Below, piece after piece: positions 1 through 37,863 of a stretch of DNA of 37,863 bases. The stretch covers positions 1 to 37,863 of IMG/VR virus record IMGVR_UViG_2684622552_000004; one strand, 5' to 3'. Origin of the DNA: a virus (Duplodnaviria > Heunggongvirae > Uroviricota > Caudoviricetes). The position numbers were made by a program, and so were the translations under genes. The notes below the pieces were generated by a model. That model saw only the letters and a program-made list of their open reading frames with translations. It made no database searches and was not told the DNA's origin. Position 1 is the stretch's first letter. Every line of letters starts with the position of its first letter.

Positions 1-1512
1 ATGATGTTAAATAATAAAAAACACTATTCAACATATATTTTGATATCAGTACTTATTATTATGTTACTGATAAGGGAGTTTTGGTTTGCTAGCAGACAGG
101 GACTACATATCGATGAGTCTCTGTCTTTTATCCTATCCGCCTATAAAGATTATGGATGGACAAAGGTTTTTGGTTCTCTAACAGAGATAACTGGTAGCCA
201 GGTACGGCAGTTGATATGGTTCAGTGACGATTCTATAAAAGGAATGCTTCGCGATGTATATCATTTGTGGCAAGATAACAGAGACACCCCTCATAGCAAT
301 CTATATTATTCATTATTAAGAATGTGGTTCACTGGGATAAATCCAGAAGGCAACACTTCATTTATAACAAACTGGGCATTTAAGCTTAACCAGTTATTTT
401 TCGTTGTTTCTTTTGTTGCCATATACGGCATAGCGAATAGGTTATTCAACAGTAAACAAATAGCAATATTGGTAGTTTTTGTTTCATTCATTAATACAGC
501 ATCTATATCAAACAGCATTTTTCTTAGACCATATCAAATGCAAGAAGCGCTTGTAGCGATATATACGCTTACCAGCCTAATTTTAATTAGAGAAAAATTA
601 TCATTGCGCTTATTGGTTATCCATTCAATTTCAACATCACTTGCAATGTTGAGCGGCTATTTTGCTCTATTTTATGTTGCAATGATTTCTGTTTTCTTAT
701 TTCCCTATTTAATTATAAAGTATAAAAATAATTTAAAAAACGCCATCTCATTTGCAGTAAAATACATCGCACTAACCTCGATTATTTCTTACGCGGTATA
801 TCCAAAATATTTTTTCGTTGATGGGAACAGGCAAGGAGAGGCATTAGATAAGCTTGGTAGTTTTAGCGACAACCTAGTTAATTCAGTAAAATCATTGTCT
901 ATGATTAATGACTTCTTTCCTATCGGGGTGTTAATCGCGCTAACAGTCATAGCGGTGTCATTGTTTTTTATTGTTAAGAATAAAAACATAATGAGTGAAA
1001 CTAATTACTTTGTATTTATTCTTGCATCAACCGTTATGATGTGGGTGATAATCGTGCAATTATTATCCCCATATAAGAACCTTGCTAGATATATATACCC
1101 ATCACTGCCTATGTTTGGTTTGTTTTACGGATATATAGTATTCAGCATATATAACAATTATAAATCAGTAAAGGCATTACCCATCATTGCATCAGTAGTT
1201 ATATTGATATCATCTACGTATTTATATTTTAATGGTGAAAAGGTCGATTATATTAATAAAAATAGAGAAAAAGATTGCGCCATTATTCCTGAACATAGTG
1301 TCATAATAGCAAAATCACCATGGAAAATGGGATACATTGCAACCTGCCTTAATTCAGAGGAAAAGTACGGAATGACTAATAATTTTGACTATAACATTTT
1401 CAAATCAAAAGGGTATACCACTATAATAAGCGACCAAGATATAACCAGCGAAAACGTTAAATTAGTTAATGGAAATGTCATGGTCTACTTCAAAAAATAC
1501 AGCATGAATTGA
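1..1512 (+). CDS. Polytopic membrane protein, putative O-antigen-modifying glycosyltransferase (GtrC-like serotype conversion)
   Basis: 503-aa ORF with many hydrophobic helices, visibly AT-rich versus the rest of the window. Convergent with the tailspike gene, the position GtrC occupies in P22-like prophages. Assignment is positional; no motif was verified. Confidence 0.4.
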   Translation: MMLNNKKHYSTYILISVLIIMLLIREFWFASRQGLHIDESLSFILSAYKDYGWTKVFGSLTEITGSQVRQLIWFSDDSIKGMLRDVYHLWQDNRDTPHSNLYYSLLRMWFTGINPEGNTSFITNWAFKLNQLFFVVSFVAIYGIANRLFNSKQIAILVVFVSFINTASISNSIFLRPYQMQEALVAIYTLTSLILIREKLSLRLLVIHSISTSLAMLSGYFALFYVAMISVFLFPYLIIKYKNNLKNAISFAVKYIALTSIISYAVYPKYFFVDGNRQGEALDKLGSFSDNLVNSVKSLSMINDFFPIGVLIALTVIAVSLFFIVKNKNIMSETNYFVFILASTVMMWVIIVQLLSPYKNLARYIYPSLPMFGLFYGYIVFSIYNNYKSVKALPIIASVVILISSTYLYFNGEKVDYINKNREKDCAIIPEHSVIIAKSPWKMGYIATCLNSEEKYGMTNNFDYNIFKSKGYTTIISDQDITSENVKLVNGNVMVYFKKYSMN

Positions 1513-1519
1513 TTAACAC

Positions 1520-1548
1520 GGCCCCATTATAGATGGGGCCACTTTTAG
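1520..1548. terminator. Bidirectional hairpin terminator between convergent genes
   Basis: Perfect 8-bp inverted repeat GGCCCCAT / ATGGGGCC with 5-nt loop, followed by CTTTT, in the 32-bp gap between the membrane-protein gene and the tailspike gene. Confidence 0.5.
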
Positions 1549-3980
1549 ATATTAGATGTTTGAATTATATCTGTATTCGCTTTATTGGAGGAAGGGTAAT
1601 TACAAGTAAATGTTGAATTCAATGTCGCATTTTCTCCAAACCATAGCTTATTTGTTGTACTAACAGAACCAGAGACAGATCCAGATATTTCCAATCCATT
1701 TATAGCATCTCTGAATGTATTTTTAACGCATCTAATGGTTTGATAATGAGATAACCATGACTGCCCTCCAGTATCCCTAAACAAACATGATGCTGCTGGT
1801 ACGCCAGGAGTTGATGAACTAATAAAATTACCTATCATTTCAAGGTAATTATATGGTCCAGTTAATGCAGTACCTGCAGGAAGGCTAGCAATGATATTGC
1901 CACCATTAAGGATGTTATTGTTTACCCTCATTATCTTTGGTGTATATCCTGACGGACTTATATCCAGTAAATATGAGTTATTCACACCAAAGTCATTATC
2001 ATTAATTTCAACCACACAGGAGCTTGAACATTTTATATTAAATCTTGTATAAGTCCCTTCAAATTTATTGCGATTTAACCTCACATAATTAAACCCATTG
2101 CCTAAGTTAGAATACATGCTACCGAAGAAGCGAGTTCCTGGTATTGCGTTATTCCATATGAATTTATTGGAATTGATATCCAGAGATGTTGAATAACTCC
2201 CGAAAGAAAATGAACAGTTCCTGAATTCATTCCCTTGAATTAATACTTTTTCAAAATTACTTACATGTAGATTGGCTGTTGAGGTTACTAAAAGCCTGCC
2301 CATGATATTGTTTGTTAGGCGCAGTGATGAGTTTGATATTTCTGGCTGGTCAACACCAATAATCATTCCATCACCAGTTATGTTTATTGTGTTATTATCA
2401 ATCCTCCAATCAGAGTTAGTTATATGAGTATAAATAGTCATAAAAGTAGGGGCTTGGAAAACATTATTCTCAATATTAACATTATAGGATGTCATCAAAT
2501 AATCGTTACTTCCAGAAGCACCCAATAAAAATATTCTATCCTTAGATAAAACAGTATTTCCGCTAATAGTTATAGCTCTTAACCAGTTAGTGTTAAACCA
2601 TTCCGTTCCTTTATTGTTGCTGATCATCATCCACATTCCATCACATGTTGCTGTGTTTCCTGTTACTGTGATCTGCCCCCATGGCTGAACCTGAGCAGCA
2701 CCAGTTCCGCCACCCGTATCAAATGCCATACAATAATCAATGATATCAAATGTATTGCCAGTAACTGTATATCTGTTAAAACCGAATCTACCTTTAACCG
2801 CTCCATTTCCGCGAGTATTTATTCTATTCCTGAAGGTATTACCTGTTACAGTAATATCACCAACCAGAATTCCATTACCCTGATCTGTAAATGCTGCTCC
2901 TGCGGTATAAACCGCATGGTCATACCATCCAAGAAATGAGCAACTAGACACTCGAAGGTTTCTGGCATTCCCTACAACACAACCACCAGGTGCGTCTTTA
3001 AAAACCATATCAAAAACGACCAGTCCTGACGTTTTTTTGTCATGGTTATAATATGTCTCTCCAGCAACTGGGATGTTACCATCAGGACCATGTATATAAG
3101 GAGATGTACCACCTGGTTCGATATCACCATAATAAGTTTGGTCTGGAATTCCTGTAGTGCTGCTGGTTCCCGATGCAGCAACTTCAATTGAACGTGCATT
3201 ACCATCAATTTGTAACCCATGCACCGACTGAGCACCTACAGCACCACTCAGGAATCGGAATAATTTACGGGTATCTCTTGCCGGATCAATCTCGGTCGTA
3301 GAACCTTCAACAAAGTATGTGCGATACCGGCGAGTAATAGTTGCTGAACCATCGCCCCATACTGAACGAACATATGACCATACATTAACAGCCGTATCAA
3401 AACAGTATATTCCAGTTGGGAAGTATACGGAGCATTTAAGATTATGCGCCTCATCCATGACCATCTGAACTTTAGGCTGATGGTTTATTGAAAGGTCACC
3501 AGATGCCAAAGCAGCCAGCTCTGCTTCGTTCATATATTTTGTAGCCAGAATACTTGGTGTCTTCTCTACATATTCATCAAGTGTTCCATATCGGGTGTTT
3601 ACAAGAGAACCATTGCCATTAGCTAATTCAAGGCGCAACTGGTCAGGATCGTATTTCAGTACATTAGGATAATAGAACTGCTGTGCCCCGTACGCATCAT
3701 AAACAGCCATAGAATGGCCTTTCACAGTTACGAACTTGGCAATCTGCCCGTTATATACAGGATATCCAGCAGCGTTAATGATGATTGGTTGCGAAACAGG
3801 AACGTGAGAACCATCTTCGTTCTCTATATAAACCTGAATCTGGTTTTCAGGATTTACCGGGTCAGTGTCAATTTTTCCGATATAAATTTTTCCATTGGCT
3901 ACGGCTTTAAAAGAACGCGCCATAGTGAAGAGTTGCGAAGGCATACTCACTACAACATTGGCATTTATTGAATCTGTCAT
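1545..3980 (-). CDS. Tailspike protein: P22 gp9-type N-terminal head-binding domain plus divergent beta-helix receptor-binding domain
   Basis: N-terminus [12 protein letters not shown]...[12 protein letters not shown]...DTDPVNP...[10 protein letters not shown]...VLKYDPDQ closely resembles the P22 tailspike head-binding domain. The rest has repeated VTGNTF / ISGNT / IDNNT rungs typical of parallel beta-helix O-antigen depolymerases. Start moved to internal ATG at 3980 (MTD...); the ORF track extends 15 codons upstream. Confidence 0.9.
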
Positions 3981-4067
3981 TTTAATTTCTCTATATGTTA
4001 AGCCAGCAATATTCATTGCTAGCATGTTTTTTGTATAATGAGTGCACTTTATTTAAAGGTGGTTAAC

Positions 4068-4577
4068 ATGAACTGGAACGAAGTATTCGTATTAAAAGAC
4101 GATGGACTCCTGTACTGGAGTGACCAATATCTTTCAAGACCCAAAATGTTCAATATCTCTAAAGAAAAGCCTGCAGGACATATATTCAAGGACAAGAACA
4201 GGAAAACCTCTTATATAATTATTAGGTATCAAGATAAAATATACGCCGCCCACAGGATAATATGGGAAATGTGTTATGGTGAAATCCCTTCCGGAATGCA
4301 AATTGACCATAAAGATGGTAATGGGTTAAATAATTCAATAGACAACCTGCGTCTAGTTAGTCTCGGTGAAAACCTAAAAAACAAATCTAAATACACAAAC
4401 AATACATCTGGGTGCGCAGGGGTTTCATGGCATAAGACCCATAAAAAGTGGGTGGCATATATTAGCGACGCAGGGAAGCGCATTAATCTCGGATACTTTA
4501 AGAGTCTCGATGATGCAATTGCTGTAAGGCGTGAGGCTGAAAAGACCTATGGTTATCATGAGAATCATGGTAGGTAA
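4068..4577 (+). CDS. HNH homing endonuclease with C-terminal AP2-like DNA-binding domain
   Basis: Motif IDHKDGNGLNNSIDNLRLVSLGENLKNKS (HNH His-Asn-Asn) followed by AP2-like segment SGCAGVSWHK...WVAYI...GKRINLGYF. SD AAAGGTGG 6 nt before the ATG at 4068. AT-rich, opposite strand to flanking virion genes. Confidence 0.8.
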   Translation: MNWNEVFVLKDDGLLYWSDQYLSRPKMFNISKEKPAGHIFKDKNRKTSYIIIRYQDKIYAAHRIIWEMCYGEIPSGMQIDHKDGNGLNNSIDNLRLVSLGENLKNKSKYTNNTSGCAGVSWHKTHKKWVAYISDAGKRINLGYFKSLDDAIAVRREAEKTYGYHENHGR

Positions 4578-8059: not shown

Positions 8060-8734
8060 TTAAAACAATGATCCAAGACCACCGATAACACCGCCAGCAA
8101 GAGCACCAATACCAGTCCCAATAACAGGAACTGCACTACCAATCATTGCACCTGATGCGGCCCCACCAATGGCACCTGTAGCAAAACTCTGTAGGCCTGA
8201 AGGCTTATTGGCATTTGCTGCCGCTGCCGCCGCCTGCTGTTGATACAACTGGCTGACGTTGTTAGCGTAGTTCTGCCCGGCGTTTGCCTGACCTGTAAGA
8301 GCACCAAGGCCGATATTTGCCAGATTGTTGTAGTTGTTCATCTGACCTGACAGCCAGTTTTGACCGAGTGTAGGTGCGATTGCTGCTAACTGGTTTCCTG
8401 TTGCTGTAGAGCCTAATCCACCCGTTGCCTCTGCTGCTGCCAGACTCTGATAGCGCGCCTGCCCTGCAAGGTCTTTATACTGCTGGGAGTTGTAATACTG
8501 GTTAAGCTCCTGACCTTGCCCCTGAAGAGAGGAAAGATTTTGCAACTGTGATACGTACTGCTGAGCGAGTGGCGTGAACGGTGCAAGGTTCTGCATGTTC
8601 GTTTGCCACATTTCACGCTGCAATTCGATGCCCTTTTCAGTTGCGCGTGCCTGGGCTTTTGAACCGCCATCACTGCCACCTTTGCAGTAAACAGTTTTGC
8701 TGAGGTGCTTATTGGCAATCTGGAAAATTAACAT
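8060..8734 (-). CDS. DNA ejection protein, P22 gp7-like
   Basis: 224-aa ORF with Q/N/G-rich low-complexity regions and a glycine-rich hydrophobic C-terminus; gp7 position and size (P22 gp7 about 229 aa). Confidence 0.7.
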   Translation of the reverse strand: MLIFQIANKHLSKTVYCKGGSDGGSKAQARATEKGIELQREMWQTNMQNLAPFTPLAQQYVSQLQNLSSLQGQGQELNQYYNSQQYKDLAGQARYQSLAAAEATGGLGSTATGNQLAAIAPTLGQNWLSGQMNNYNNLANIGLGALTGQANAGQNYANNVSQLYQQQAAAAAANANKPSGLQSFATGAIGGAASGAMIGSAVPVIGTGIGALAGGVIGGLGSLF

Positions 8735-9191
8735 TCTTTAGCTCCTCGTATTTTGAGCGCGGTAACTGATAAATCGTGATGCCTACAGGCTTTCCATTGC
8801 TGGTATAAGCATCATCAAGGTGACCAACACGGGTAGCGCCAAGCAAACGGATAATTGCCCGTCCGTATTTCGTGGTGTCAGGAACCATGGTGATGCTGTT
8901 AAGGAATGGTGAGTTTTCGAGAAGCCATTTGCAGAATAATCGATGCCCTTGCAGTGCATATTCACCACGGAATCCGGGGTCGTACACCGCATGGCATTCA
9001 ACAACGCTATGCCAGAAGTTACGCACTTCATGAACGCCAGCCAGCACTAATCCTTCGTAGATACCGAGATATACCGCATCAGGCTTGATGTAGTATTTGT
9101 CTCCACTGTCTACGATATTTCCCGTGTTTGCCGGGTTGTTGAGGAATTCTGCAAGCTTCACCGGATTATCGATGAGCTTTATTTCCATCAC
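8709..9191 (-). CDS. P22 gp14-like virion protein
   Basis: 160-aa ORF between tail needle and gp7, matching the size and position of P22 gene 14. Confidence 0.55.
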
Positions 9192-10036
9192 TGCTCCGCA
9201 ATGATTTTGATGGTTGTGGCAGTAAACGCCGCACCATTTGACTGAATGGTTAACGTGCTGCCATTTGTAGCAAGAAAGCCGTCTTTATCCACGCTGAAGA
9301 ACGTAGCTAACAAGATGTTATCGGTTGTTGTCGCCGAGTTGCGACTGCTTACCAGAGTGTCAGGAACAGAGCCGGAAAATGTTAGCTGCATTGACCTGTT
9401 GGCGGTTCCGCTGGGCCACGTCCCGACAATCGACAGCTTGAAGAACAAGGTTTTGTTCTCGTTGAACACAACCATCTTGTTGTTAACGGTGTCGAAGAAT
9501 GGTGCCAACGTGCCGGATGACGGCGTGAGCGTTTTCAGCAGGCTAACAAGGTTGGTCGGCGCTGTCGGGATGGTTACAGATACGCCAGAGTAAACAACTT
9601 CTGACTTCTTGCGCGTAGTGGCATACTCAAGAGCATCGATGCGCGTTTCATGGTCTGAAAGCGTGTTTTGAATGGCGACAACTTCATCCGTCAGATAATC
9701 AATATCGTTTTCTGCTGTCGTTAATCGTGAATCAAGTCCGACTATCGCCGCTTCTGCGTTAGTAATCCTTGTTTCGTGGTCCTGAATCTTCGCTTCAGCT
9801 GATGCCAGTCGAATTTCGTGATCAACCAGAATCACATCCTGCTCATCGTTCCTGACCTGTGCATCATAAGCGCCTTGTCCGGCCTCGTTGGCCTTGTTCG
9901 CCACATTACCAACATCAGCACCCTGTGCAATAACGTAAAGCAGATACGACTGCGAGAAGATATTGCGTGGAAGGATTGATGTATCGAGCCGCGTCGCCTG
10001 AACAATAACAGGTGTATTGAGATTCGAATCCGCCAT
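9188..10036 (-). CDS. Tail needle protein (P22 gp26-like) with extended C-terminal domain
   Basis: N-terminus [39 protein letters not shown]...[19 protein letters not shown] resembles the P22 gp26 hub-binding tip; heptad coiled coil follows. 282 aa versus 233 aa in P22, with a non-coiled C-terminal domain. Confidence 0.8.
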
Positions 10037-11453
10037 TACTCAATCCTTATCTGAGCACCAGACAGAGTGACAGGTGACTTCGTGATAACGCGCAATTTGA
10101 AGCCAATGTTTTTCCTGATGCGCCCTACTTTCTTCCACAAAACGCGTTTGTCGTAAACGAACGGTTCATTCTGCTCAATCATCTGCTCACGCCCGTAATT
10201 GATGCCGTCAGTTGTAGCAGAGAGGAACAGGCGGTCAGCATACTGAGCAACACCCGTCGATGATTCCACCTCCAGATCAAAGCATCTGGCGTTATCTGCT
10301 TTGAAGAGTGGAGTAAACAGCAGGTGTTCTTGCTGTAGCCCATACTGGCTGCTGATATCGAACTGCAATTTCCCGGTCACGGACTCCAGTTTATCGCCGC
10401 ACGTTATCTGATTGCCTTCGTAAATGAAGTCGATAGCGCGGTACACATCGTCATACAGGCCTGTTTTCAGTACACACCATTGCGGACCATTGGAGCTTGA
10501 AGATGCGTCGTATACGAGGACATGGCGCGGAAGATGGATAATCAGCAACTCATGAGCATCAAACCGCAACGATTCCATCACGCCATCAGCCAGTTCATCA
10601 GCAGTGTAGGAGCGTAGTATTTTCTCAATGCTCGCGCTGGCAATTGGTGATACCTGACCGGAGCCGATGATATACACAGACGCGCACCCGTTGCCGGATT
10701 GCTGATGAACGCATAAGAATCAGCGAATGGCGTTTTGCAGTAGGTTCCGGCAATCCCTTTCTGCACCATCAGTGATGGCTGTGCGACATACAAAGCGGCA
10801 CCAACGGTGGTTGCACCAGTCAGGGAGAAATATTCAATCGTCGATGAACCAAAGCAGACGATGAAGTCTCGCCATGTACCTATGCCGATGATGCCATCAG
10901 GCTGAGATTCTGCGCGATATTGTGCGCTGTATCGGTCAGGGTGTGATTCGTCTTCAAGGTCAGTGATAAACCATGAATCAGTACCGTCTTTTGACCACGC
11001 ATAACGCCCACGTAAGCGCGTAATGTCACGAACTGAACCTAACTCGTACTGTGTGAATCCGCTGTCTGTAGGCCAGTTTGAGACGGTTTTAACCGTACCA
11101 TCATAGCGATACTCGACCAGTTGACCATTAACGCCTACAGCCTGAGATGTTCGACCATGCGCCATTGATACGCGGCCACTTCCGGCGACGTCACCGACTT
11201 CGCTTTCGCCTTTGTAGAGCTTGCCGCCACACACACGATAAACAGCACTCTGCGCCATGTTGTACTCGACGCCGCGAGATACACCGTTCACATCAGAACG
11301 TTTGGCAATGCCCGGGAATGAGCGAAGATATCCGCTGCTGTTGAGGATTTCTTTGGGGGTTGCCAGCATATTCACTGGCAGATAGTCGATATAGTCGGCG
11401 TTTCGGAAGTCTTTGCCGACACCTTTCATAAGCGGAAGTTGCTGAATCGGCAT
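10036..11453 (-). pseudogene. Tail hub protein (P22 gp10-like) interrupted by a frameshift
   Basis: Two overlapping minus-strand ORFs (10578..11453, 291 aa; 10036..10677, 213 aa) together equal the length of one gp10-like protein (about 472 aa). The downstream frame has no real start; the track begins it at a GTG inside continuous coding sequence (...SVYIIGSGQ). Frame switch near 10680-10690. Confidence 0.7.
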
Positions 11454-11954
11454 TTATTCGCTCCCGTCATCGCAATGTTCCTTCCGGTGGAAGTAATTCC
11501 AACCGTTCCACTTCGCCAACTGGTTACCACTACCAACAGGCATGCGGTTTGGATAACCGGACTTACATTTAGCGGCTTTTGCTCTGTCCATTGCAGACAG
11601 TTTGACGAGTCTCTCTTTCCCGTATCTGGCAGTGGTTATAAGTTTTGCAGACGCTTCCAGCGCATAATCCGGAGCAATGCGGCAGGCAAGGTTGAAAATG
11701 ACGGCATTGATAGCGTTATTTGATAAACCGTGTTCATCGCCAGGATCTGGAGCGACATCTGCATCAGCGAAAATGTAGCCAACGTTGATACCTGGTGACG
11801 CATCACCGCCAAGCCACTCAGCCATCATCATTTCAAGGTCGTTGACGCCATCTTCCATGGACTGCGGTTCGACATCGGTTAACGTGGCATTTGATGCCAC
11901 ACCGAGCTTACGTAATGCCGCAAGAACTAAATCACCCTTCGTTGTCAGGTTCAT
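11454..11954 (-). CDS. Head-to-tail adaptor protein (P22 gp4-like)
   Basis: [47 protein letters not shown]...[13 protein letters not shown] resembles P22 gp4; 166 aa from the internal ATG at 11954. The track's upstream extension reads the hexanucleotide repeat as SQSQSQ. Confidence 0.8.
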
Positions 11955-30365: not shown

Positions 30366-30692
30366 ATGAAAGTTTTAATGGTTTATGAAAATGTTCCAGA
30401 GTCGACTGAAATCTATATTTTTGATGCCAATGAAGATGAAGTTAACGATTTGAAATCGTCTCACGGCAATTACACAAATGCTAATTGTGATGAAAGTATC
30501 GAAAAAGCACTATCACGTGTTCTTGTCAGAATTAGTGATCCAGAACATTGTGATGATGATTGGCTTTCTTATTGTGGAGCGGTAAAAACTGATGCAGGAA
30601 AATGGAGTAAAAGTAAAGTTGATAACTCAACTCCAATCATTATGAAAGATAGTGATATTGAAATGGTAATAATAACCGGAATGATTATGTAG
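30366..30692 (+). CDS. Hypothetical AT-rich acidic protein
   Basis: 108 aa, net acidic (about 22 D/E versus 10 K/R by hand count), visibly AT-rich relative to neighbours. Confidence 0.5.
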   Translation: MKVLMVYENVPESTEIYIFDANEDEVNDLKSSHGNYTNANCDESIEKALSRVLVRISDPEHCDDDWLSYCGAVKTDAGKWSKSKVDNSTPIIMKDSDIEMVIITGMIM

Positions 30693-36472: not shown

Positions 36473-36844
36473 ATGGAATCATACAGCCTCACACTCGATG
36501 AGGCCTGTCAGTTTCTCAAGATATCCAGACCTACCGCCACCAACTGGATACGAACAGGCCGCCTAAAGGCAACACGTAAAGACCCAACCAAGCCAAAATC
36601 CCCTTATCTCACAACACGACAAGCCTGCATTGCGGCGCTTCAATCTCCGCTGCATACTGTCCAGGTGAGCGCGGGTGATGGCATAACAGAGGAAAGAAAA
36701 TGTCACTCTTCCGCAGAGGTGAAATATGGTACGCCTCGTACTCGCTCCCGGGCGGGAAGCGAATTAAGGAATCTCTTGGCACAAAGGACAAGCGGCAAGC
36801 GCAGGAGCTGCACGACAAACGAAAAGCTGAGCTCTGGCGAGTAG
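36473..36844 (+). CDS. xis: Excisionase Xis (large, P22-type)
   Basis: HTH-like [26 protein letters not shown] immediately upstream of int; 123-aa frame overlaps the int start by 145 nt. Confidence 0.65.
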
Positions 36845-37863
36845 ACAGGCTTGGTGATTTTCCAGATGTGACGTTTGAAGAAGCATGCTTGCGCTGGATT
36901 GAAGAGAAGTCAGATAAGAAATCGCTCGATACAGATAAAGGCCGGATGGGATTCTGGCTTGAACATTTTGAAGGTGTGCGGCTAAAGGATATTACTGAGG
37001 CAAGGATTTACTCAGCCGTCAGCAGGATGCATAACCGTAATCACCTTGAGATATGGAAATCAAAAGCAGAGGCGGCAAGGAAGAAAGGAAAACCCGCGCC
37101 TGAATATGTCGCTAAACCAGTCACCACTGCCACCAAGGCAAAGCATCTTGCACTGATGAAAGCCATTCTGAGAGCAGCAGAACGTGACTGGAAATGGCTG
37201 GAGAAAGCACCGATCATCAAGATACCGACAGTACGCAACAAGCGTGTGCGGTGGCTGGAAAAGGAGGAAGCAAAAAGGCTGATTGATGAATGCCCGGAGC
37301 CATTAAAGTCTGTCGTCAAGTTTGCACTGGCGACAGGTTTACGGCGTTCGAACATTATCAATCTGGAGTGGCAACAGATAGACATGCAGCGCCGTGTTGC
37401 GTGGATCAACCCGGAAGACAGCAAATCAAACAGAGCTATTGGCGTAGCGCTGAATGATACTGCATGTAAGGTTCTGCGAGACCAGATAGGCAACCATCAT
37501 AAATTTGTGTTCGTACACACAAAGCCAGCAAGACGGCCTGATGGTTCTCTCACTCCTGCAGTCAGAAAGATGCGAGTCGATGACGGCAGAGCCTGGAAGG
37601 CAGCGTGCAGACGAGCAGGTATTGAGGATTTCCGTTTTCATGACCTGAGACACACATGGGCGAGCTGGCTTATTCAGGCTGGCGTGCCGTTATCTGTGCT
37701 TCAGGAAATGGGAGGATGGGAATCAATCGAAATGGTACGCAGGTATGCTCACCTGGCACCTAATCACCTGACCGAGCACGCGAAGCAAATTGACGCTATT
37801 TTTAACGATAATGTCCCAAATTTGTCCCACGAAGGAAAAGCAGAAGCGGGAGGAAGCATTTAA
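36700..37863 (+). CDS. int: Tyrosine integrase, P22 Int-like
   Basis: 387 aa; [48 protein letters not shown]... and C-terminal ...[17 protein letters not shown]...[20 protein letters not shown] (R-H-R-Y catalytic residues) closely resemble P22 integrase. Confidence 0.9.

What the first reader, a model, noticed from the sequence alone, without database searches (positions are those of the whole stretch)
1..1512. AT-rich polytopic membrane protein at the prophage end: probable serotype-converting enzyme whose operon is cut by the window edge
This is the most AT-rich gene in the window, and the window starts exactly at its start codon. In P22-like prophages gtrA and gtrB precede gtrC next to attP, so partner genes would lie just upstream and outside the window. 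It could alternatively be an O-antigen acetyltransferase or polymerase.
Basis: inference. Interest (0 to 1): 0.45.

Follow-up and report, generated by a model that had tools for sequence, protein, structure and literature searches.

The report
Prophage O-antigen glucosyltransferase gene (gtrC-type)
This gene is the third, specificity-determining enzyme of a phage gtrABC cassette that most likely adds glucose to the host's surface O-antigen; the system is well known, but this protein belongs to a sequence family nobody has characterised.

The parts
1..1512 (+). Type-specific (gtrC-position) gene of a gtrABC cassette. It encodes a 503-aa GT-C-fold integral membrane glycosyltransferase: N-in, 11 predicted TM helices, periplasmic loop EL1 at residues 31-118, and a C-terminal periplasmic alpha/beta domain at residues 412-503.
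1..14 (+). Last 14 nt of gtrB (codons ...GAT GTT AAA TAA), overlapping the start of the target gene. The rest of gtrB, gtrA, the operon promoter region and the att core lie upstream of the window.
   Evidence: L001 gtrB at 9082-10014 against the target at 10001-11512; frame check.
112..117 (+). Codons for D38-E39, the acidic pair 8-9 residues after TM1 in the first periplasmic loop. Inferred to be the GT-C catalytic or donor-binding motif.
   Evidence: Invariant in 75 family members with a mean column identity of 25%; placed in a periplasmic loop; GT-C hallmark as described in PMC6801728.
280..321 (+). Codons for the conserved EL1 motif R94-D95-x-P97-H98-x-N100-x-Y102-Y103...R107.
   Evidence: Invariant in alignment A1 and mostly at least 90% conserved in A3; periplasmic in the topology model.
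1072..1110 (+). Codons for Y358-K359...R363-Y364...P367...P370: a basic motif in the external loop between TM9 and TM10, followed by prolines at the start of TM10. Inferred to bind the lipid-phosphate donor.
   Evidence: Conserved; the only region with weak sequence matches to ALG9 (E=0.017) and ArnT (E=0.15) in PDB profile searches; fits the GT-C pattern described in PMC6801728.
1520..1540 (+). Rho-independent terminator hairpin (9-bp stem, 6 G-C pairs) followed by a T-rich tail. It ends the gtr operon between the convergent gtrC-type gene and the tailspike gene.
   Evidence: Pattern scan: 1 found against 0.2 expected from shuffles. SfV has an annotated terminator at the equivalent position.
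1545..3608 (-). Tailspike receptor-binding domain (residues about 130-826). It is co-inherited with the gtrC-type gene as one low-GC module.
   Evidence: Window 1-3608 is 95.4% identical in DNA to Citrobacter portucalensis locus L045; the receptor-binding domain is 95.8% identical in protein, while the N-terminal domain there is of another type.
3609..4025 (-). Tailspike N-terminal P22-type head-binding domain. It belongs to the phage backbone, not to the mobile module.
   Evidence: PF09008 E=4.5e-66; not shared with L045.
36700..37863 (+). Tyrosine integrase. It is adjacent to gtrA on the circular phage map and marks the other prophage end, next to tRNA-Arg(UCU).
   Evidence: PF00589 E=1.4e-45; intact tRNA-Arg(tct) 16 nt downstream of int in L010; 56-nt att repeat.

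Best explanation
The gene encodes the type-specific, GtrC-position glycosyltransferase of a three-component gtrABC O-antigen glucosylation system. The system is carried by a P22-like prophage integrated in the tRNA-Arg(UCU) gene of Escherichia fergusonii. The proposed mechanism follows. GtrB, encoded just upstream of the window, makes undecaprenyl-phosphate-glucose from UDP-glucose on the cytoplasmic face of the inner membrane. GtrA flips it to the periplasmic face. This 11-TM GT-C enzyme then transfers the glucose to one particular sugar of the host O-antigen repeat. It would use the invariant D38-E39 pair in its first periplasmic loop and the K359/R363 motif to engage the lipid-phosphate donor, with the 92-residue C-terminal periplasmic domain and the long external loops selecting the acceptor. 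The result would be serotype conversion that masks the receptor recognised by the phage's own tailspike, giving superinfection exclusion. Shown here: gene order, orthology of GtrA and GtrB, the GT-C fold, periplasmic placement of all conserved residues, and co-inheritance with the tailspike receptor-binding domain. Inferred: glucose as the sugar, O-antigen as the acceptor, the catalytic roles of the named residues, and the biological effect.
For: 1. The exact protein lies directly after gtrA (PF04138) and gtrB (PF00535) in GCA_000968895.2 and in a Logan contig, with a 14-nt overlap between gtrB and the target.
2. GtrA is 91-97% and GtrB 87-90% identical to SfV, SfII, HF4s and P22 proteins; the DNA is 82-84% identical to SfI, SfV, SfII and SfIV.
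3. The architecture is the same as in six reference converting phages. att core and tRNA.
5. D38, E39, N130 and Y220 are invariant across 75 homologues. All conserved residues are periplasmic or periplasm-proximal apart from N130, which sits mid-TM2. Orientation is supported by K/R counts of 14 against 7.
6. Low GC (0.324) matches reference type-specific gtr genes (0.32-0.38), which are also mutually unrelated in sequence, as reported for Salmonella GtrC families (PMC3688519).
7. Homologues at 41% and 70% identity also follow gtrA-gtrB in other prophages. Of 20 distant genomic homologues, 8 have a GtrB-like gene within 4 kb.
8. The gene and the tailspike receptor-binding domain are co-transferred.
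Against: There is no biochemical or LPS evidence. The protein has no detectable sequence similarity to any characterised type-specific Gtr (BLASTP not significant; best hhalign probability 41% to P22 GtrC). The acceptor cannot be named. Davies et al. found no detectable O-antigen change for two of the six Salmonella GtrC families they tested, so sitting in the gtrC position does not guarantee O-antigen modification. The D38-E39 region has low model confidence (pLDDT 52-64 for residues 31-50), and no residue-level structural superposition was available. GtrIc, GtrX and Salmonella families III-X were not compared directly.
Confidence: 0.85

Rival explanations
1. It is a GT-C transferase fed by GtrA and GtrB, but its acceptor is not the O-antigen. 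The acceptor could be enterobacterial common antigen, LPS core, a capsule or a periplasmic protein, or the enzyme may have no detectable substrate in this host.
For: The acceptor is not determined here. Two of the six Salmonella GtrC families tested by Davies et al. gave no detectable O-antigen change (PMC3688519). Distant family members sit beside teichoic-acid-type and other glycopolymer genes rather than in phage cassettes.
Against: The gene is inherited together with a tailspike receptor-binding domain as one 3.6-kb module across different phage backbones. In all enterobacterial contexts examined it converges on a tailspike or tail-fibre gene. This fits an acceptor that is the phage's polysaccharide receptor.
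Confidence: 0.08
2. It is an O-antigen O-acetyltransferase, like Oac of Sf6 or the family II GtrC of BTP1. This was one of the first reader's alternatives.
For: Some genes in the gtrC position are acetyltransferases, as in BTP1 (title and abstract of PMC4413052). The 70% homologue's locus carries a separate Acyl_transf_3 gene.
Against: There is no Acyl_transf_3 or SGNH match even at E<=10. The predicted fold is GT-C, and no acyltransferase appears among the structural hits. In the P0003 locus the acyltransferase is a different, additional gene.
Confidence: 0.01
3. It is a phage-encoded O-antigen polymerase (Wzy-type) or ligase-like enzyme that changes the linkage between repeat units.
For: It is a polytopic, low-GC membrane protein in a prophage, and phage-borne wzy genes are known (for example PMC4815439, listed).
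Against: There is no Wzy or O-antigen-ligase family match. All significant structural hits are lipid-phosphate-sugar-dependent GT-C enzymes. A tight operon with gtrA and gtrB, which supply a single lipid-linked glucose, is not what a polymerase needs.
Confidence: 0.01
4. It is an inactive remnant or passenger gene with no current function.
For: All database entries call it a hypothetical protein. It is very rare in complete E. coli genomes: 3 of 5426, and only weak 84-nt matches.
Against: The ORF is intact and translationally coupled to gtrB. It is conserved at 86-97% identity in Salmonella, Citrobacter, E. coli and E. fergusonii. All family-invariant residues are retained, and it is followed by a terminator.
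Confidence: 0.03

Closest known systems
Type-specific glucosyltransferases of Shigella flexneri converting phages (GtrI, GtrII, GtrIV, GtrV of SfI, SfII, SfIV, SfV)
   Same: Same position: third gene after near-identical gtrA and gtrB, next to att and int, converging on a tail gene and followed by a terminator. Same low GC (0.32-0.33) and similar size (417-506 aa). Also shared are a polytopic membrane protein with a cytoplasmic N-terminus and a large N-terminal periplasmic loop carrying acidic residues (PMC3259042).
   Different: No detectable sequence similarity (BLASTP E>0.6; hhalign probability at most 1.2%). It ends in a periplasmic C-terminal domain, as described for GtrI, II, V and X, but unlike GtrIV and GtrIc. 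The host and presumably the acceptor O-antigen differ.
P22 GtrC (ORF485; Salmonella GtrC family I; Pfam Glucos_trans_II PF14264)
   Same: Same phage type (P22-like, head-binding tailspike), same operon position, same convergent arrangement with the tailspike gene, similar length (485 against 503 aa) and similar GC (0.319).
   Different: The target does not match PF14264. There is only a faint profile signal (hhalign probability 41%). P22 has four GATC sites upstream of gtrA, the phase-variation signature, whereas this prophage has one. The attachment site is tRNA-Arg(UCU); P22's own site was not examined.
Structurally solved GT-C glycosyltransferases (yeast Pmt1/2/4, STT3/PglB/AglB, ArnT, ALG9/ALG12)
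   Different: Sequence identity is only 7-13%. No Pfam GT-C family is matched by the target itself. The acceptor would be a polysaccharide rather than a protein or lipid A, and the soluble domain is much smaller (92 residues).
Gram-positive and other three-component glycosylation systems (GtrB/CsbB-like synthase + flippase + GT-C enzyme such as YfhO)
   Same: Distant members of the target's own family sit next to GtrB-like GT2 genes and cell-wall glycopolymer genes. The logic is that of the three-component systems described in PMC11194591.
   Different: Only 1 of 75 family members weakly touches the YfhO Pfam model. The enterobacterial branch is phage-borne and tied to tailspike genes.

Membership tests
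gtrABC O-antigen glucosylation cassette, type-specific (GtrC) component | Third gene immediately downstream of conserved gtrA and gtrB, on the same strand, as one operon | tested here: met
   L001: gtrA 8723-9085, gtrB 9082-10014, target 10001-11512. GtrA is 91-97% and GtrB 87-90% identical to SfV, SfII, HF4s and P22.
gtrABC O-antigen glucosylation cassette, type-specific (GtrC) component | Located at the prophage end beside att and int, converging on a tail gene | tested here: met
   56-nt att core about 200 bp upstream of gtrA and inside tRNA-Arg(tct) next to int; tailspike convergent at 1545-4025; same layout in six reference phages.
gtrABC O-antigen glucosylation cassette, type-specific (GtrC) component | Low-GC, serotype-specific gene without sequence similarity to other type-specific gtr genes, while gtrA and gtrB are conserved | tested here: met
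   GC 0.324 against 0.32-0.38 for seven references; no significant BLASTP hits; the references are mutually unrelated except P22 and BUCT554; the pattern is described in PMC3688519.
gtrABC O-antigen glucosylation cassette, type-specific (GtrC) component | Polytopic inner-membrane protein with cytoplasmic N-terminus and a large N-terminal periplasmic loop | tested here: met
   By prediction only: 11 TM helices and an 88-residue EL1; K/R 14 of 88 inside against 7 of 108 outside. Experimental topologies of other Gtr proteins: PMC3259042.
gtrABC O-antigen glucosylation cassette, type-specific (GtrC) component | Adds a glucosyl branch to a defined O-antigen sugar and converts the serotype | not testable with these tools
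   Needs LPS gels, NMR or MS, and serology on the lysogen against a cured or deletion strain.
GT-C fold glycosyltransferase superfamily | GT-C transmembrane fold | tested here: met
GT-C fold glycosyltransferase superfamily | Acidic DxD/DD/DE motif shortly after TM1 in the first external loop | tested here: met
   D38-E39 are invariant in 75 sequences and lie 8-9 residues after TM1; feature as defined in PMC6801728. The catalytic role is not tested.
GT-C fold glycosyltransferase superfamily | Conserved residues confined to the extracytoplasmic side, including an R/K in the external loop of the C-terminal TM cluster followed by Pro in the next TM | tested here: met
   All invariant or near-invariant residues map to periplasmic loops or the periplasm-proximal or middle parts of helices (N130 is mid-TM2), none to the cytoplasmic face. 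K359/R363 are followed by P367/P370. This motif gives the weak ALG9 and ArnT sequence matches.
GT-C fold glycosyltransferase superfamily | Uses a polyprenyl-phosphate-linked sugar donor | not testable with these tools
   Inferred from the adjacent GtrB orthologue and from GtrB-like neighbours of distant homologues.
Pfam Glucos_trans_II (PF14264; GtrII and P22 GtrC family) | Match to the family HMM above the gathering score | tested here: not met
   No hit for the target at E<=10, while P22 GtrC, GtrII and the BUCT554 protein match at 1e-24 to 1e-33.
Pfam PMT_2 (PF13231) / ArnT-like (the 'RgtA/B/C/D-like' name UniRef gives the 97% homologue) | Match to the family HMM above the gathering score | tested here: not met
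   No PMT_2 hit for the target or for P0001, P0003, P0006 or P0009 at E<=10. ArnT reaches only E=0.15-1 in PDB profile searches.
Acyl_transf_3 O-antigen acetyltransferases (Oac, OafA, BTP1 GtrC) | Acyl_transf_3 domain (PF01757) | tested here: not met
   No hit; the fold is GT-C.
Wzy-type O-antigen polymerases / O-antigen ligases | Wzy or O-antigen-ligase family match, or the corresponding fold | tested here: not met
   No Pfam hit, and none among the structural matches.
Salmonella GtrC families I-X (Davies et al. 2013), and S. flexneri GtrIc and GtrX | At least about 96% identity within a family, or at least detectable homology to a family representative | tested here: inconclusive
   Family I (P22) was tested and is unrelated. 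tblastn against 50,697 phage records found no phage-borne relative except one weak hit in an uncultured fecal phage. gtrIC primers are absent from all loci held. Sequences of the chromosomal families III-VII, IX and X, and of GtrIc and GtrX, were not available for direct comparison.

The most novel reading that the evidence does not exclude
The protein founds a previously undescribed GtrC family. That family is itself the enterobacterial, phage-borne tip of a large uncharacterised GT-C family (2,152 cluster representatives at 50% identity). Members in spirochaetes, Melainabacteria, Bacteroidales and Helicobacter are also frequently paired with a GtrB-like lipid-sugar synthase. In enterobacteria the gene is physically coupled to a tailspike receptor-binding domain as a portable 'recognise-and-mask' module. 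That module would specify a new, so far unassigned O-antigen glucosylation shared by E. fergusonii, Salmonella (including serovar Apapa) and Citrobacter lysogens.
Probability: 0.5. Interest if true: 0.4.

Novelty: new member of a known kind. Interest (0 to 1): 0.3.

Why it matters
The gtrABC cassettes are a main route by which temperate phages change enterobacterial O-serotypes. That affects serotyping, vaccine antigens and phage susceptibility. This protein is labelled 'hypothetical' in every database entry and is invisible to Pfam, NCBIfam and PHROGs, so lysogens carrying it would be missed by in-silico serotype prediction. Assigning it to the GtrC role provides three things: a testable candidate for an unexplained O-factor in E. 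fergusonii, Salmonella and Citrobacter; a seed alignment for a new GT-C family model; and a clear case of a tailspike receptor-binding domain and its matching receptor-modifying enzyme moving as one unit between phage backbones. The underlying biology is well established, so the gain is incremental.

Tried and rejected
1. Pfam, NCBIfam and PHROGs scans of the target gave no family.
2. Megablast against phages and E. coli genomes gave nothing. A distant blastn against 5,426 complete E. coli genomes gave only three 84-nt matches.
3. tblastn against 50,697 phage records gave one weak hit, 21% identity, in an uncultured fecal phage.
4. PDB sequence and profile searches reached only non-significant ArnT and ALG9 motif matches.
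5. The AFDB50 fold library was unavailable.
6. I tested whether the roughly 100-aa N-terminal extensions of some family members are fused GtrA domains. They have no Pfam hit.
7. I tested whether the 70% homologue P0003 is S. flexneri GtrIc, because its gtrA and gtrB are divergent. The published gtrIC primers and the GAAATG repeat are absent, and the described GtrIc topology differs, so this was rejected.
8. I tried to name the acceptor O-antigen from the tailspike receptor-binding domain. It has no solved relative, and its only relatives are Vi01-like 'tail spike 3' proteins at 52% identity, whose specificity is not stated in those records.
10. The acetyltransferase and polymerase readings were considered and rejected on family and fold evidence.
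Full report
**1. The observation**

Window 1..1512 (+) is an uninterrupted ORF of 503 codons that starts at the first base of the window (ATGATG...) and ends in TGA. Its GC content is 0.324, the lowest of 44 major ORFs. The window as a whole has GC 0.466 and the phage body about 0.48 to 0.52. The gene is followed by a 9-bp-stem hairpin with a T-rich tail at 1520-1540. It converges on an 826-aa tailspike gene (1545..4025, minus strand) whose N-terminus is a P22-type head-binding domain (PF09008, E=4.5e-66). The rest of the window is a P22-like prophage: gp16, gp20 and gp7-type ejection proteins, portal and other virion genes. It ends exactly at the stop codon of a tyrosine integrase at 36700..37863.

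**2. What lies upstream**

The identical protein is on record as WP_046081709.1 of Escherichia fergusonii. It is encoded on JZWN02000001.1 of assembly GCA_000968895.2. The coordinates of this gene and of the integrase show that the window is bases 1205694-1243556 of that contig.

Immediately upstream lie a 120-aa GtrA-family gene (PF04138, E=1e-13) and a 310-aa family-2 glycosyltransferase gene (PF00535, E=3e-31). The stop codon of the second gene falls at window positions 12-14, so it overlaps the target's start by 14 nt.

These are true orthologues of characterised genes. GtrA is 96.7% identical to HF4s, 91.7% to SfV and 80.8% to P22. GtrB is 90.1% identical to SfV, 89.8% to SfII and 87.1% to P22. 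The gtrAB DNA is 82-84% identical to that of SfI, SfV, SfII, SfIV and HF4s.

About 200 bp upstream of gtrA there is a 56-nt sequence identical to the 3' part of an intact tRNA-Arg(UCU) gene, which sits 16 nt beyond the integrase at the other prophage end. This repeat is the att core. Beyond it lie chromosomal genes: hmp and glyA on one side, folD and cysS on the other. Once the circular phage map is closed, the order is int - att - gtrA - gtrB - target - terminator, converging on the tail gene. The annotated converting phages SfV, SfI, SfII and SfIV have this same order up to the type-specific gene, as do P22 and HF4s.

**3. What the protein is**

No Pfam, NCBIfam or PHROG model matches it, even at E<=10. 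BLASTP against seven reference type-specific Gtr proteins (GtrI, GtrII, GtrIV, GtrV, P22 GtrC, HF4s GtrC and the BUCT554 protein) gives nothing significant. A profile built from 75 homologues reaches at best 41% hhalign probability, to P22 GtrC.

This lack of similarity is the normal state of affairs for this position in the operon. The seven references are also mutually unrelated, apart from P22 and BUCT554, and all share the same low GC of 0.32-0.38. Davies et al. report less than 18% identity between a family I and a family III Salmonella GtrC protein and very low conservation between families in general, while GtrA and GtrB stay 84-90% identical (PMC3688519).

**4. Topology and motifs**

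The model has 11 helices of transmembrane length. Between TM1 and TM2 there is an 88-residue loop (31-118) with short helices. Between TM7 and TM8 there is a 42-residue loop (267-308) with a long amphipathic helix. Residues 412-503 form a 92-residue C-terminal alpha/beta domain.

K/R residues are enriched on the face predicted to be cytoplasmic if the N-terminus is inside: 14 in 88 residues, against 7 in 108 on the other face.

Across 75 homologues with a mean column identity of 25%, D38, E39, N130 and Y220 are invariant. R25, L89, D95, H98, Y102, Y103, R107, L129, R176, Y178, Q181, Y267, K359, R363, Y364 and P370 are at least 90% conserved. In the N-in model, every one of these lies in a periplasmic loop or in the periplasm-proximal or middle part of a helix. 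None lies on the cytoplasmic face.

This matches the GT-C hallmarks summarised in PMC6801728: an acidic DxD/DD/DE motif shortly after TM1 in the first external loop, conservation restricted to the extracytoplasmic side, and an R/K in the external loop of the C-terminal TM cluster followed by a proline in the next helix. In the target these correspond to D38-E39 and to K359/R363 followed by P367/P370. The second motif is also the only stretch that gives weak sequence matches to solved GT-C enzymes: ALG9 at E=0.017 and ArnT at E=0.15. The catalytic roles of these residues are inferred, not shown, and the model is least confident around residues 31-50.

**5. Family and context elsewhere**

A profile search of 1.84 billion cluster representatives finds 2,152 relatives at E<=1e-3 and 330 at E<=1e-30. 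Only 7 of the 75 sampled members touch a Pfam model (ALG9-like GT22), one touches DUF6056 and one touches YfhO. The family is therefore essentially uncurated.

Close relatives (86-97% identity) occur in Salmonella enterica (including serovar Apapa), Citrobacter braakii, C. portucalensis and E. coli. All are named 'hypothetical protein'.

- The 41% homologue follows gtrA-gtrB in other P22-like prophages at other integration sites.
- The 70% homologue follows a divergent gtrA (called at 107-149 aa in different assemblies) and gtrB (38% identity) in a prophage with a Mu-type baseplate, with an extra acyltransferase gene downstream.
- The 53% homologue follows a GT2 gene and converges on a Peptidase_S74 tail-fibre gene.

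In species-representative genomes only distant relatives (24-37% identity) are found, in Treponema, Gastranaerophilales, Bacteroidales/Prevotellaceae, Helicobacter marmotae and a Holosporaceae MAG. In 8 of those 20 loci a full-length GtrB-like gene (35-43% identity) lies within 4 kb, often ending right at the homologue's start. The association between this GT-C family and a polyprenyl-phosphate-sugar synthase therefore extends well beyond enterobacterial phages.

The gene is absent from 50,697 phage records, apart from one weak hit. It is essentially absent from 5,426 complete E. coli genomes.

**6. Link to the tailspike**

In Citrobacter portucalensis, window bases 1-3608 are 95.4% identical to the local sequence. 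That stretch covers the gtrC-type gene and tailspike residues 130-826, which are 95.8% identical in protein. The tailspike's N-terminal virion-attachment domain there is of a different Pfam type, Tail_spike_N.

The low-GC gene and the receptor-binding domain therefore move as one module of about 3.6 kb between phage backbones. The break point falls at the junction between the head-binding and receptor-binding domains. This is the best available evidence, though indirect, that the enzyme's acceptor is the same polysaccharide the tailspike recognises. The receptor-binding domain has no solved relative. It is 52% identical to 'tail spike 3' of Vi01-like phages, which does not identify the O-antigen.

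**7. Mechanism proposed**

By orthology with the characterised system (summarised in PMC11194591; PMC3259042), the steps would be as follows. GtrB charges undecaprenyl phosphate with glucose from UDP-glucose. GtrA flips the product to the periplasmic face. The GT-C enzyme encoded at 1..1512 transfers the glucose to a specific O-antigen residue in the periplasm. This changes the serotype and blocks adsorption of phages that use the unmodified O-antigen.

Glucose is inferred from the 87-90% identity of GtrB to the bactoprenol glucosyltransferases of SfV, SfII and P22. O-antigen as acceptor is inferred from the tailspike linkage.

Expression is probably not phase-variable in the P22 manner. The region upstream of gtrA resembles the SfV/HF4s type and has one GATC site, where P22 has four (signature described in PMC3688519).

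**8. Rivals**

- A non-O-antigen acceptor, or no detectable activity, remains possible at roughly 8%. Two of the six Salmonella GtrC families tested showed no LPS change in Davies et al..
- An inactive remnant is unlikely, given the intact, coupled and conserved ORF.

**9. Novelty and verdict**

Four things are new. This protein belongs to a sequence family not represented among the characterised type-specific Gtr proteins tested here. Pfam, NCBIfam and PHROGs have no model that matches it. It is the phage-borne tip of a large uncharacterised GT-C family. It is coupled to a tailspike receptor-binding domain.

Direct comparison with GtrIc, GtrX and Salmonella GtrC families III-X was not possible, so 'new GtrC family' is probable rather than proven. 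I rate it a new member of a known kind, with interest 0.3.

Noticed in passing
window 1-3608 and L045 139-3753: The gtrC-type gene and the tailspike receptor-binding domain (residues 130-826) form a low-GC module that is 95.4% identical in a Citrobacter portucalensis prophage. The tailspike there has a different N-terminal attachment domain (Tail_spike_N instead of P22 Head_binding).
   Followed up: partly
window 1545-3608 (-): The tailspike receptor-binding domain has no relative among solved structures. Its only phage relatives are 'tail spike 3' of the Vi01-like phages (Vi01, KEP4) at 52% identity. Its glycan specificity is unknown.
   Followed up: partly
window 4038-4577 (+): An HNH endonuclease gene (PF13392 plus a weak AP2 domain; phrog_99) sits alone on the plus strand between the tailspike gene and the gp16-type ejection protein gene. 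It looks like a homing-endonuclease insertion.
   Followed up: no
L001 8520-8722 (upstream of the window): The gtrA upstream region has a single GATC site (at -58), like HF4s, and resembles the SfV sequence. P22 has four GATC sites (-135, -122, -71, -58). The Dam/OxyR phase-variation signature described for many Salmonella gtr operons is probably absent here.
   Followed up: partly
L001 1-8350 and L010 5165-9164 (prophage flanks): The prophage is flanked by hmp and glyA on the gtrA side and by tRNA-Arg(UCU), folD and cysS on the int side. As far as I recall, these regions are far apart in E. coli K-12. This suggests a rearranged chromosome in this E. fergusonii strain, or a scaffolding issue.
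   Followed up: no
L016-L019 (E. coli loci of the 70% homologue P0003): In these loci the homologue sits in a prophage with a Mu-type baseplate. Its gtrA is divergent (called at 107-149 aa in different assemblies) and its gtrB is only 38% identical to the usual one. A separate Acyl_transf_3 gene lies downstream, so this may be a double O-antigen modification locus.
   Followed up: partly
window 30366-30692 (+): A small ORF (108 aa) in the early region has GC 0.33, the second lowest in the window. This suggests another recently acquired 'moron' (extra accessory) gene.
   Followed up: no
proteins P0085, P0086, P0091, P0094, P0104, P0111 and others (family members): Many distant family members carry an N-terminal extension of about 100 residues or more (over 200 in P0094) with no Pfam match. 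It is not a recognisable fused GtrA domain.
   Followed up: partly
L020-L023 (distant homologues P0015, P0014): Distant homologues lie next to TagF-like glycerophosphotransferase, GT2, CTP-transferase and epimerase-GT2 fusion genes. The wider family probably decorates cell-wall glycopolymers outside the enterobacteria.
   Followed up: partly
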